Source: Escherichia coli
GTDB lineage: Bacteria; Pseudomonadota; Gammaproteobacteria; Enterobacterales; Enterobacteriaceae
Direction: 5' to 3' (one strand)
Length of the DNA: 64,000 nucleotides
Assembly (NCBI RefSeq): GCF_045037415.1
Contig: NZ_CP173440.1
The position numbers were made by a program. Shown piece by piece: positions 3,001-6,000 of the stretch. Within the stretch, counting starts at the first letter, position 1, and every line of letters begins with the position of its first letter.

Positions 3001-6000
3001 TCGATCTGCCCATGCAACCCGCGTATACACTTCCATTGAGCGTGGAGCCTTATAACCGACCAAGGCCTAGATGACTTTTCTCGGTTGCCGGTATTGGCGA
3101 CAACTGTAGTACCAGATATTATCCATATCCTGACTGGCCTTCGGTGTAAGTTTAACGGTTAAGCGTATTGGGGTAATTTCCAGGTTACGCCCTTTCCTCT
3201 GTACGGAGGCATTACATTGCCTTTGGTAATTGGTGCTGTTGTGGAAGGAGTTCCTGCTACTTTCCAGATACCACTTTCAGAACATTTTGTCCGGTAGTTC
3301 TGGTCTGGGAAGTCATTCCGGTGATGGTGGTAATCCGAACAGCGGTTCGGGCTGGGGTACAACACGAACACACCTGTCTTAATTCGCCATCTTGCGTGCC
3401 TGCCCTTCTTCCTGAACATCTTTCACTGGCGTCCCTTGGTGAAATCTGAGCTGCCAACATTTCTGATGATTTGTACAAATATGGCTCCTCTGCCAAATTG
3501 ACGAACGAAGCGTCTTTTTGAATCGACAACCTCGCTGCGGTACGTGAGCAACGCGCAGTCCTTGGTTAGTAAAGCCAACTGAAAGCTGTAAGCATTGATG
3601 ACCTCCACGTCCTCGTTAATTAATGCTGCTACGGTCTGCGTTTTATCGTAACGCTCTCCCACAGTGGCCTATCTCCAGAGATTCGTCATTGTCCTCTTCT
3701 AAGCATCAACCGATTTAGCCATTAACAGCCCTATCAGCTGTTGAAAACTTTAGATTGAACCAGATGAAAATAGATATTATGGTAAATAAAACAGCAACGA
3801 AAAAAGCCGCTATAATCAGCGCCGCAGCGGCGGCACCACTTTTCGACACCAGCGGCACCAGCAATGCACAAAGCCCATAGCCAAGCGTATGACTGGTAGC
3901 AATCCAGCCCGCACCCGTGCCGTCTGTCAGTTTATCATTCAGTAGAAGCTGATAAGCAGGTGTTGCCAGAGCCGCCCCAAACGACAGCACCGCACAGCCG
4001 AGGTAAAACAACCATAGCTGTTCAGCGAACATTATCGCCAGGCCACAAATCATCAGCGCTCCGGCACTCAAAAGCAGCGCCATCGGCGTCAGGCGCTGCG
4101 GGCGGAGCACCCCGAACTGTGCGATAAGCGCGGCAACTGCGGCCAGCCCTAACAGCCACGCCACATGATGGCTAATAGCGGCGGTATCTGTAGCGAACTG
4201 GCGAGTAAGGGCGGGAGAAAGACCAAGCTGCATCATGCTCACCGCCGCAGCTAATAACAGCGCGCAAAGCAGATAAGGCAGGCAATCCAGCCTCAGGCTG
4301 GCGCTCTTGCGCTCCGCTGTAGGCCGCGGTGACGTGCCAGGCAACCGCAGCAGCATCACCAGCGCCAGCAGTGGCGCTGCCATCAGCAGCCCCATCGGCG
4401 CCAGAGGGTGAATTGCCAGCATCGCCGCCGCGCACAACGGCCCGAATAGTCTGCCGCAGCTCAAGCCGGAGCTAATGGTTGCCAGAGCGACCATGCTATT
4501 CCCTTCCCCCGCTCTCTGCAATGCCCAGACCTGACAGGCTGGTACCATCGCTGACACGGTAAGCCCGTAGGCGATCCGCGCGATGATTAATATTCCCAGC
4601 CCCACCGCTGTTGTTACAGCGCCGGTCGCCATCAGCATGCTTCCCAGCCCAAGCAGAGTAAAGCTTGCACCGTATCCCCCCAGAGCCCACAGCACCACAG
4701 GCTTACTGCCAATACGGGCAATTTGCTTTCCCCACCACGGGGAAGACGGCAGGAACAGCATTGAGCCAAGCATCAGCAAAGCCGCCCAAATCGACAAACT
4801 CAGGTTTGTCTGAATCACCAGTACAGGGATCGCGACCAGCAGGCCGTTTTGCCCGACACCGAGTAACCCCGCGCTGAACGCAAGCGGCCAGCAGGACAAT
4901 GTTTTTTGCGGCATTTCCGCGCTCTCAAGAGACGTCACGATGTTGTAATTCCATATATTGATTGTGCTTATTTATAAAATAAATTTTATCAATCCTAATA
5001 ATTTTTGTTGATAATGGGAATCTTTATCGACAAAATTCTCATTATCATGACGAGTGAGATCTGTTTGACTATGACTTTGCCAACTAAAACCTCAACCTTG
5101 GATGTGGCTGCGCAGTGCTTCCTTAATTCCTTGGTTCGTGAAACCAAAGACTGGCGGCTGACGGAATACCAGCCAACCCAATTGATCATCCCGCTGGGCG
5201 AACAGCAGGCGCTCCATTTCAGAGTGGCTTATTTCTCCCCAACCCAGCATCACCGCTTTGAATTTCCGGCGCGTCTGGTCACGGCCTCCGGCAGTCACCC
5301 CGTCGATTTCGCCACCCTCTCCCGGCTTATTGTTGATAAGCTCCAGCACCAACTCTTGCTACCCGCGACCAGTTGCGAAACCTTCCACCAGCGCGTGATG
5401 GAAAGCCACGCCCATACGCAGCAGGCAATTGATGCCCGCCATGACTGGGCAGCCCTGCGTGAAAAAGCGTTGAACTTTGGCGAGGCGGAGCAGGCTCTGC
5501 TGGTCGGGCACGCCTTCCACCCGGCGCCTAAGTCTCATGAACCGTTTAACCAGCAGGAGGCCGAACGCTACCTGCCGGACTTCGCGCCCCACTTCCCGCT
5601 GCGGTGGTTTGCGGTGAACAAAACGCAGATCGCCGGTGAAAGCCTGCATCTCAACCTGCAACAACGGTTGACGCGATTTGCCGCAGAGAATGCGCCGCAG
5701 TTACTCAATGAATTAAGCGACAATCAATGGCTATTCCCGCTGCACCCGTGGCAGGGGGAGTATCTGTTGCAGCAGGAATGGTGCCAGGAGCTTGTCGCTA
5801 AAGGGCTGATTAAAGATTTAGGCGAGGCCGGCGCGCCGTGGCTACCGACCACCTCTTCCCGCTCGCTATACTGCGCCACCAGCCGCGACATGATCAAATT
5901 CTCCCTGAGCGTGCGCCTGACCAACTCCGTCCGTACCCTGTCAGTGAAAGAAGTGAAGCGTGGAATGCGCCTGGCGCGCCTGGCGCAAACCGACGACTGG

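What the first reader, a model, noticed from the sequence alone, without database searches (positions are those of the whole stretch)
4939..5070. Divergent shiF-iucA control region with overlapping Fur-box-like sites
The 130-bp AT-rich spacer contains GATAATGGGAATCTTTATC and an adjacent TCATTATCAT element, consistent with iron-responsive Fur repression of iucA and possibly shiF. The track ORF for iucA starts inside this region (5005), so the true start is more likely the ATG at 5071.
Basis: partly seen in the sequence, partly recalled or inferred. Interest (0 to 1): 0.25.

Follow-up and report, generated by a model that had tools for sequence, protein, structure and literature searches.

The report
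Fur-controlled aerobactin promoter of pLVPK

Summary
The window is identical to the K. pneumoniae CG43 virulence plasmid pLVPK. Positions 4939-5070 (132 bp, 26% GC against 51% for the window) separate the divergent genes shiF (an MFS transporter) and iucA.

- **Fur box:** GATAATGGGAATCTTTATC (5010-5028) matches the 19-bp consensus at 16 of 19 positions, far beyond chance.
- **Homology:** It aligns base for base with the primary Fur operator of the E. coli ColV aerobactin promoter P1 and overlaps the -35 hexamer (TTGATA 5008-5013; -10 CAAAAT 5031-5036).
- **Second element:** TCATTATCAT (5039-5048) is a perfect Fur half-site at the position of the E. coli secondary site. It is not significant on its own.
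- **iucA start:** ATG 5071 is well supported. Evidence comes from RefSeq, an in-frame stop upstream in a sister lineage, a Shine-Dalgarno found only here, and the crystallised IucA. TTG 5065 is not excluded.
A published IscR activator site lies at 4947-4971. The authors of that work numbered it from ATG 5014.
- **shiF:** Fur control is direct in E. coli (ChIP-seq) and only inferred here.

Fur titration on this promoter is already published (positive, rather weak). Verdict: correct, already known, low interest.

The parts
3715..4938 (-). shiF (MFS transporter), divergent from iucA. The start is ambiguous: GTG 4938 (mechanical ORF) or ATG 4914 (RefSeq WP_023302795.1).
   Evidence: E. coli and Cronobacter homologues carry 8-15 residues before the conserved PQKTLSCWPLA block. 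That fits GTG 4938, which gives a 132-bp spacer against 135-136 bp in those species. Shine-Dalgarno pairing is weak for both candidates.
4939..5070 (.). AT-rich divergent control region between shiF and iucA.
   Evidence: 132 bp, 25.8% GC. The same divergent MFS-iucA layout occurs in three Klebsiella lineages, E. coli and Cronobacter. The iucA-upstream sequence is also homologous in C. koseri and Enterobacteriaceae bacterium LSJC7.
4947..4971 (.). Type-2 IscR box (apo-IscR activator site), published for CG43.
   Evidence: All four primers of Wu et al. 2014 (PMC4169559) match the window exactly. The inverse-PCR deletion between iucA03 and iucA04 removes 4947-4971. This equals their '-67 to -43' only if counted from ATG 5014. 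The deletion abolished IscR binding in EMSA. The sequence matches 7-8 of 9 key positions of the type-2 motif in this register only (the motif is from my own memory). It is 100% conserved among the Klebsiella lineages.
5008..5013 (+). -35 hexamer TTGATA of iucA promoter P1.
   Evidence: It is identical in E. coli and belongs to the top-scoring + strand promoter, found at -63..-35 from the ATG in all six sequences compared.
5010..5028 (.). Primary Fur box GATAATGGGAATCTTTATC (16/19 to consensus).
   Evidence: It is the positional homologue of E. coli GATAATGAGAATCATTATT (17/19). It sits at -61 from the ATG in the E. coli, Klebsiella, C. koseri and LSJC7 sequences.
5031..5036 (+). -10 hexamer CAAAAT of P1 (E. 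coli CATAAT), 17-bp spacer. The inferred transcription start is near 5043-5045.
   Evidence: The transcription start is inferred from -10 spacing and is not mapped in this plasmid.
5031..5050 (.). Secondary Fur site homologue, containing the perfect half-site TCATTATC / ATTATCA (5039-5048).
   Evidence: It aligns to E. coli CATAATTGTTATTATTTTAC. The in-phase hexamers AATTCT and CATTAT score 4/5 and 5/5. In Cronobacter the best Fur box (17/19) sits over this position and the -10. The review states that the two Fur sites overlap the -35 and -10 of P1.
4992..5020 (-). Predicted shiF promoter: -35 TTCCCA (5020 to 5015, inside the Fur box), 17-bp spacer, -10 TAGGAT (4997 to 4992). An alternative is TCAACA (5011 to 5006) with TAAAAT (4988 to 4983).
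   Evidence: A minus-strand candidate at the same offset (-51/-79 from the iucA ATG) ranks in the top two in all six sequences. The alternative scores slightly higher in the window but recurs only in L003. This is a prediction only; no transcription start data exist.
5052..5059 (+). Shine-Dalgarno-like GAGTGAGA (E. coli has AGGAG at the same place).
   Evidence: Pairing with the anti-SD gives -5.1 kcal/mol. The candidates 5005, 5008, 5014 and 5047 have none (+0.4 kcal/mol or worse). Alignment.
5071..6795 (+). iucA coding sequence (574 aa) from ATG 5071.
   Evidence: RefSeq WP_004213920.1. PDB 5JM7/5JM8 IucA aligns from this Met. The ATG is conserved in all lineages.

Best explanation
This is the bidirectional, iron-regulated control region of the aerobactin locus on a pLVPK-type Klebsiella virulence plasmid. 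It is orthologous to the classic ColV-K30 aerobactin promoter and operator.

When iron is plentiful, Fe2+-Fur dimers bind the primary box 5010-5028, which overlaps the P1 -35 hexamer. By homology with E. coli, binding then extends along in-phase hexamers over the -10 and the transcription start, including the half-site at 5039-5048. This blocks RNA polymerase at iucA. The predicted shiF -35 lies inside the same box, so shiF should be blocked too.

When iron is scarce, Fur leaves. P1 fires from about 5043, producing a leader of roughly 27 nt, and IucA is translated from ATG 5071. Apo-IscR bound at 4947-4971 adds modest activation.

Also shown, in the literature, are Fur titration, derepression in a fur mutant and IscR EMSA for CG43, and footprints and ChIP for E. 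coli.

What is inferred: the exact transcription start, spreading of Fur onto the secondary site in this variant, the shiF promoter, and Fur control of shiF in Klebsiella.
For: - **Identity:** 100% to pLVPK and to hundreds of Klebsiella virulence plasmids.
- **Fur box statistics:**
- **Homology:** gap-free alignment to E. coli ColV-type plasmids, with -35 plus primary site 86% identical, more than the rest of the spacer (64-76%).
- **Promoter position:** P1 sits at the same offset in six sequences.
- **Box position:** the primary Fur box is at -61 in E. coli, three Klebsiella lineages, C. koseri and LSJC7. In Cronobacter the box covers the -10.
- **E. coli literature:** two Fur sites overlap -35 and -10 of P1 (PMC3788343). 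The footprint is long, with 13 overlapping predicted sites, mostly 6 bp apart in such clusters (PMC2189734).
- **CG43 literature:** Fur titration was positive, iucA rises in a fur mutant, and IscR binds in EMSA (PMC4169559).
- **shiF:** it is a direct Fur target and iron-induced in E. coli.
- **Start codon:**
Against: - The box is a poorer consensus match than in E. coli (16/19 against 17/19), and its 7-1-7 sub-motifs are weaker (my own count; one search finds no match at 3 mismatches or fewer).
- The published Fur titration signal was described as relatively weak.
- The second element is only a half-site and is not significant alone.
- No transcription start mapping, footprint or N-terminal sequence exists for this plasmid.
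- Fur control of shiF in Klebsiella is untested, and two candidate shiF promoters compete.
- The primary papers (de Lorenzo 1987, Escolar 2000, Lin 2011) could not be read here.
Confidence: 0.9

Rival explanations
1. IucA starts upstream of 5071 (TTG 5005, ATG 5014 as in the older pLVPK numbering, or ATG 5047). Part of the 'operator' would then be coding sequence.
For: The frame is open from 5002 in pLVPK, L004 and E. coli. Wu et al. 2014 counted from ATG 5014. ATG 5047 exists in this lineage only.
Against: - A sister Klebsiella lineage (L003/L005, IucA about 97% identical) has an in-frame TAA at the equivalent of 5032-5034, and ATA instead of ATG 5047.
- Cronobacter has a stop 9 codons upstream.
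- None of these candidates has a Shine-Dalgarno.
- 5005 and 5014 lie within or upstream of the P1 -35/-10, so P1 transcripts would not contain them.
- RefSeq and the crystallised enzyme both use 5071.
Confidence: 0.04
2. IucA starts at TTG 5065, two codons before the ATG.
For: TTG 5065 is in frame and conserved in Klebsiella and E. coli. It lies 5 nt after the Shine-Dalgarno-like element, which is better spacing than the 11 nt for ATG 5071.
Against: Cronobacter has no in-frame TTG there, yet keeps the ATG at 10-nt spacing. ATG is a far stronger initiator than TTG. PGAP chose ATG.
Confidence: 0.06
3. The Fur-like sequences are only AT-rich promoter DNA. Iron control of iuc in Klebsiella would then be indirect, for example through IscR, RyhB or H-NS.
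For: The Fur titration signal was weak. IscR and RyhB both affect iucA mRNA in CG43. The spacer is 26% GC.
Against: Shuffles of the same AT-rich spacer reach this match in only 0.06% of trials. The site is orthologous to the footprinted E. coli operator. Fur titration was nevertheless positive, and the paper states that Fur directly represses iucA.
Confidence: 0.03
4. Fur regulates iucA only. shiF would be driven by a separate promoter that is blind to Fur.
For: No Klebsiella data exist on shiF expression. The shiF promoter is only predicted, with two competing candidates. The IscR box lies in the predicted shiF leader.
Against: In E. coli, ShiF is a direct Fur target and iron-induced, and the authors state that it shares the Fur box with iuc. 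Both candidate shiF -35 hexamers overlap or abut the Fur box. The -51/-79 candidate is positionally conserved in six sequences.
Confidence: 0.25

Closest known systems
Aerobactin promoter P1 and Fur operator of E. coli plasmid ColV-K30 (de Lorenzo 1987; Escolar 1997-2000), the site that defined the Fur box
   Same: It is orthologous and colinear, with no gaps from inside shiF through the start of iucA. The -35 TTGATA is the same. The primary box sits at the same place (-61 from the ATG), the secondary site lies over the -10 and start, the Shine-Dalgarno and ATG are in the same positions, and shiF is divergent in both.
   Different: The box has 3 mismatches rather than 2. A8G is specific to this lineage, and A14T is shared with one other Klebsiella lineage (the L004 lineage and C. 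koseri have C there). The -10 is CAAAAT instead of CATAAT. The secondary site is reduced to one perfect half-site. The Shine-Dalgarno is weaker (GAGA against AGGAG). A lineage-specific ATG occurs at 5047. The reported Fur titration signal is weaker.
Bidirectional Fur-controlled promoter regions of E. coli (fepA-fes, fepB-entC, fepDGC-entS)
   Same: A short AT-rich spacer lies between divergent iron-uptake genes, with Fur sites placed to occlude both promoters (PMC2189734, lists these as footprinted bidirectional regions).
   Different: Here a single central box appears to serve both -35 hexamers. The second promoter is only predicted.
Cronobactin locus of Cronobacter plasmids (pESA3 type)
   Same: It has a divergent MFS gene and an IucA-family gene, a 135-bp spacer, a promoter at the same offset and a Fur box.
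   Different: IucA is only 52% identical over its first 150 residues. The best Fur box (17/19) lies over the -10 rather than the -35. A siderophore-interacting protein gene follows the MFS gene.
[quoted passage not shown]
   Same: A published EMSA-defined site lies within this spacer, at 4947-4971.
   Different: The published coordinates (-67 to -43) assume ATG 5014. Counted from the supported start the site is at -124 to -100, about 70-95 bp upstream of the inferred P1 start.

Membership tests
Fur operator (Fur box) of the aerobactin P1 promoter | 19-bp match to GATAATGATAATCATTATC, or an in-phase NATWAT hexamer array, beyond chance | tested here: met
   16/19 at 5010-5028. Two hits occur in the window against 0.01 expected. 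Only 0.06% of shuffled spacers match as well, and the 7-hexamer array score is reached by only 14 of about 128,000 positions.
Fur operator (Fur box) of the aerobactin P1 promoter | Overlap with the -35/-10 of the regulated sigma-70 promoter | tested here: met
   -35 at 5008-5013 and -10 at 5031-5036. This is a consensus prediction supported by positional conservation, not by a mapped transcription start.
Fur operator (Fur box) of the aerobactin P1 promoter | Sequence orthology to the footprinted ColV-type operator | tested here: met
   Gap-free alignment to E. coli ColV-type plasmids, with 86% identity over the -35 plus primary site.
Fur operator (Fur box) of the aerobactin P1 promoter | Fur binds the DNA, and expression is iron- and Fur-dependent | not testable with these tools
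   Literature only. Fur titration was positive (relatively weak), and iucA is derepressed in a fur mutant of CG43 (Lin 2011, as reported in PMC4169559). No footprint exists for this variant.
Fur operator (Fur box) of the aerobactin P1 promoter | A second Fur site over the -10 and start, as in E. coli | tested here: inconclusive
   A perfect half-site lies at 5039-5048, at the homologous place. The full 19-mer matches only 11/19 by my own count, and the 10-mer alone is not significant.
Bidirectional Fur-regulated promoter (shiF co-regulated with iucA) | A divergent promoter whose core elements overlap the same Fur site | tested here: inconclusive
   A candidate is conserved at -51/-79 in six sequences, and a second candidate exists in the window. 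No transcription start data are available.
Bidirectional Fur-regulated promoter (shiF co-regulated with iucA) | shiF derepressed without Fur or iron | not testable with these tools
   This is shown for the E. coli orthologues. It is not reported for Klebsiella.
IscR type-2 binding site | An experimentally bound site lies at these coordinates and fits the motif | tested here: met
   The published primers map the deletion to 4947-4971. The motif fits 7-8 of 9 key positions in that register only. EMSA is reported in PMC4169559.
iucA translation start at ATG 5071 | A conserved start codon with a Shine-Dalgarno, and upstream alternatives excluded in relatives | tested here: met
   TTG 5065 is not excluded, and no N-terminal sequence is available.

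The most novel reading that the evidence does not exclude
The pLVPK (iuc1-type) control region may be a naturally attenuated Fur operator. It alone carries G at box position 8, and it alone has the G that creates ATG 5047.

All three Klebsiella lineages have 3 mismatches in the Fur box, but at different positions: 8/9/14 in pLVPK and 9/12/14 in each of the other two.

The promoter-proximal 80 bp is the most divergent stretch of the 3.2-kb shiF-iucA locus between pLVPK and the L004 / C. koseri type. It shows 10 differences in 43 bp against about 1% elsewhere, while the IscR-box half of the spacer is 100% conserved.

This could reflect lineage-specific tuning of aerobactin expression. Looser Fur repression might contribute to the high aerobactin output of hypervirulent strains.
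Probability: 0.15. Interest if true: 0.35.

Novelty: already known. Interest (0 to 1): 0.1.

Why it matters
Aerobactin is the main siderophore and a major virulence factor of hypervirulent K. pneumoniae, so its switch is medically relevant. However, the switch is already understood: Fur represses it, and IscR and RyhB modulate it.

This check has three practical outcomes.
- It fixes the iucA start at 5071, so the 596-aa track ORF and the older ATG 5014 numbering are over-extended.
- It re-maps the published IscR site to -124..-100 from the supported start.
- It flags that Fur control of shiF in Klebsiella, and the strength of this variant operator, have not been measured directly.

Tried and rejected
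- **Rfam:** a scan of the whole window found nothing, so no riboswitch or sRNA explains the spacer.
- **7-1-7 Fur motif:** at 3 mismatches or fewer it does not hit the iucA region. The box is recognisable only with the 19-mer or hexamer models.
- **Primary papers:** de Lorenzo 1987, Lin 2011 and Escolar 2000 are not held. Their content is cited second-hand from PMC4169559, PMC2189734 and PMC3788343, or marked as my own memory. The M10930 footprint coordinates 291-393 could therefore be mapped onto the window only roughly (about 4952-5054, plus or minus a few bp).
- **Genome-contig scan:** a scan with a conserved iucA 5' word gave 8 loci. Only 5 are true iucA loci, and 3 of those are E. coli-type DNA in mis-binned MAGs. 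This added LSJC7 and C. koseri but no deep diversity.
- **shiF start:** it could not be resolved between GTG 4938 and ATG 4914.
- **Weak Fur-like 19-mer at 4954-4972:** it matches 13/19 and overlaps the IscR box. It was considered as a shiF-side operator, but the match is at a level expected by chance in such AT-rich DNA.
- **Orphan Fur box at 2828-2846:** I guessed it was the iroC-iroD junction. That is wrong, because the neighbouring match is internal to iroC.
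Full report
**What the window is.** The 801 bp around the finding (4600-5400) are 100% identical to plasmid pLVPK of Klebsiella pneumoniae CG43 (NC_005249.1). They are also identical to hundreds of other Klebsiella virulence plasmids. About 1,800 E. coli genomes and ColV-type plasmids carry the same region at 81-82% identity. RefSeq annotates an MFS transporter (the shiF homologue) on the minus strand and iucA, iucB and iucC on the plus strand.

**Checking the observation.**
- GATAATGGGAATCTTTATC lies at 5010-5028.
- TCATTATCAT lies at 5039-5048.
- The mechanical ORF starts at TTG 5005, with in-frame ATGs at 5014, 5047 and 5071.
- The spacer 4939-5070 is 132 bp at 25.8% GC, in a window of 51% GC.

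The 19-mer has 3 mismatches to the Fur consensus. Only two such matches exist in 64 kb, against 0.01 expected. Composition does not explain this: only 0.06% of shuffles of the AT-rich spacer itself reach 3 mismatches or fewer. Only 0.6% reach the observed score (25/35) of the seven in-phase NATWAT hexamers that start at 5010.

The second element is a perfect Fur half-site (TCATTATC / ATTATCA). As a bare 10-mer it is not significant: 2 occurrences against 0.2 expected. The 7-1-7 version of the motif does not pick up this region at 3 mismatches or fewer.

**What it is.** Aligned with E. coli ColV-type plasmids, the whole spacer is colinear without a single gap. The E. coli sequence TTGATAATGAGAATCATTATTGACATAATTGTTATTATTTTAC is the classical aerobactin P1 promoter and operator. 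According to the review in PMC3788343, its two Fur-binding sites overlap the -35 and the -10 of P1, and it serves as the textbook model of Fur repression. PMC2189734 adds that the footprint is exceptionally long (M10930 positions 291-393) and holds 13 predicted overlapping Fur sites. In such footprinted clusters most sites lie 6 bp apart.

In the window the homologous elements are these:
- -35 TTGATA at 5008-5013;
- the primary box at 5010-5028;
- -10 CAAAAT at 5031-5036 (E. coli CATAAT);
- the secondary-site homologue at 5031-5050.

A simple sigma-70 scoring matrix puts the best plus-strand promoter at exactly this offset (-63 to -35 from the iucA ATG) in all six sequences compared. These are pLVPK, two other Klebsiella lineages, two E. 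coli types and the distant Cronobacter cronobactin locus.

The primary box sits at -61 in pLVPK, both other Klebsiella lineages, E. coli, Citrobacter koseri and Enterobacteriaceae bacterium LSJC7. In Cronobacter the best box (17/19) covers the -10, which is the position of the secondary site. Between pLVPK and E. coli, the -35 plus primary-box segment is 86% identical. That is higher than the rest of the spacer (64-76%) and similar to the flanking coding sequence (82-83%).

**Published experiments on this very sequence.** Wu et al. 2014 (PMC4169559) worked on CG43. They summarise Lin et al. 2011 as showing that Fur directly represses iucA. The weaker signal fits the poorer consensus match here (16/19 against 17/19 in E. 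coli).

The same paper defines a type-2 IscR box in PiucA by EMSA and deletion. All four of its primers match the window exactly, and the deletion removes 4947-4971. That equals their '-67 to -43' only if counted from ATG 5014. Counted from the supported start it is at -124 to -100. RyhB also raises iucA mRNA in CG43, apparently indirectly (PMC3423075).

**The iucA start.** ATG 5071 is supported by independent lines of evidence.
- RefSeq starts the 574-aa IucA there in every lineage.
- A sister Klebsiella lineage (L003/L005) has an in-frame TAA at the equivalent of 5032-5034, and ATA in place of ATG 5047. Only TTG 5065 and ATG 5071 therefore survive in that lineage.
- Cronobacter has a stop nine codons upstream.
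- Only 5065 and 5071 are preceded by a Shine-Dalgarno-like element: GAGTGAGA at -5.1 kcal/mol, with AGGAG at the same place in E. coli. The candidates 5005, 5008, 5014 and 5047 have none.
- 5005 and 5014 lie within or upstream of the P1 core, so P1 transcripts would not contain them (inference).
- The crystallised IucA from hypervirulent K. pneumoniae (PDB 5JM7/5JM8) begins at this Met. That was a construct choice, not a native N-terminus.

TTG 5065 has better spacing from the Shine-Dalgarno (5 nt against 11 nt) and cannot be excluded. However, Cronobacter lacks an in-frame TTG and keeps the ATG at 10-nt spacing.

**shiF.** In E. coli S88, shiF rises 8-14 fold in iron-depleted broth, serum and urine. 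[quoted passage not shown] In UPEC CFT073, ChIP-seq with RNA-seq lists ShiF as a direct Fur target (PMC7157518).

In the window, a minus-strand promoter candidate has its -35 (5020 to 5015) inside the Fur box and its -10 at 4997 to 4992. It recurs at the same offset in all six sequences. A second candidate (5011 to 5006 with 4988 to 4983) scores slightly higher here but recurs only in L003. Either way one Fur box would occlude both divergent promoters. For Klebsiella this remains an inference.

The shiF start itself is ambiguous. GTG 4938 fits the N-terminal length of homologues and a 132-bp spacer. ATG 4914 is the RefSeq choice.

**Mechanism.**
- With iron: Fur-Fe2+ occupies 5010-5028 and, as in E. 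coli, probably spreads along the hexamer array over the -10 and start, shutting P1 and the shiF promoter.
- Without iron: Fur leaves, RNA polymerase starts near 5043, IucA is translated from 5071, and apo-IscR at 4947-4971 adds roughly two-fold activation.

**Comparison and novelty.** This is the orthologue of the site that originally defined the Fur box, in its Klebsiella variant, and it has already been tested in the source strain. It is already known.

The only mildly new points come from the comparison.
- G at box position 8 and the ATG at 5047 are specific to the pLVPK lineage.
- All three Klebsiella lineages carry three box mismatches, at partly different positions.
- The promoter-proximal spacer is the most divergent 43-bp stretch of the locus between pLVPK and the L004 / C. 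koseri type: 10 differences against about 1% background (binomial P about 5e-6 for 5008-5050). The interval was chosen after looking, and the contrast is not significant against L003 (P = 0.08).

This could mean lineage-specific tuning of aerobactin expression, or simply recombination and relaxed constraint.

**Verdict.** Interest is low and the system is already known.

Noticed in passing
window 2823-2851 (minus strand); Fur-like 19-mer at 2828-2846: A stronger Fur-type site than the iucA one. GAAAATGATATTCATTATT matches 16/19, there are two overlapping 7-1-7 matches 6 nt apart, and the hexamer-array score is the best in the window. It sits between a near-consensus promoter (TTGAAA, 17-bp spacer, TAATAT). 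Only a 34-aa ORF follows, then an IS630-like transposase fragment (2146-2556), then def. It looks like an orphaned iron-regulated promoter.
   Followed up: partly
window 2864-2948: This 85-bp stretch is 93-94% identical to an internal part of iroC (the salmochelin exporter) of E. coli plasmids. It is a gene fragment lying between shiF and the orphan Fur promoter. RefSeq calls a 64-aa 'hypothetical protein' (2823-3017) across it.
   Followed up: partly
window 18497-18514 and 18841-18904: Fur-like 7-1-7 matches and high NATWAT hexamer-array scores lie at the 5' end of, and upstream of, rmpA2 (about 17932-18567, minus strand). rmpA2 is reported as Fur-repressed in CG43 (my own memory of Lin 2011). 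The gene is also simply very AT-rich.
   Followed up: no
window 5008-5070 compared with L004:1738-1800 and L017: The promoter-proximal half of the shiF-iucA spacer in the conjugative Klebsiella plasmid CP082797 is identical to that of the Citrobacter koseri chromosome, while the distal half differs. The flanking coding sequence is about 99% identical to pLVPK. This suggests a mosaic or recombinant control region.
   Followed up: partly
window 5071-6795, IucA residue 364 (query residue 386 from TTG 5005): The window's IucA differs from the crystallised hvKP IucA (PDB 5JM7) at one residue: Pro here, Ser in the structure (NVLVPLTQ against NVLVSLTQ).
   Followed up: no
L010, L014, L016 (genome contigs): E. 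coli-type shiF-iucA promoter DNA is present in MAGs labelled Bacillota and Collinsella. This is most likely binning contamination.
   Followed up: no
window 42860-42874 and 56863-56877: Two isolated weak matches (3 mismatches) to the 7-1-7 Fur motif. Their context was not examined.
   Followed up: no
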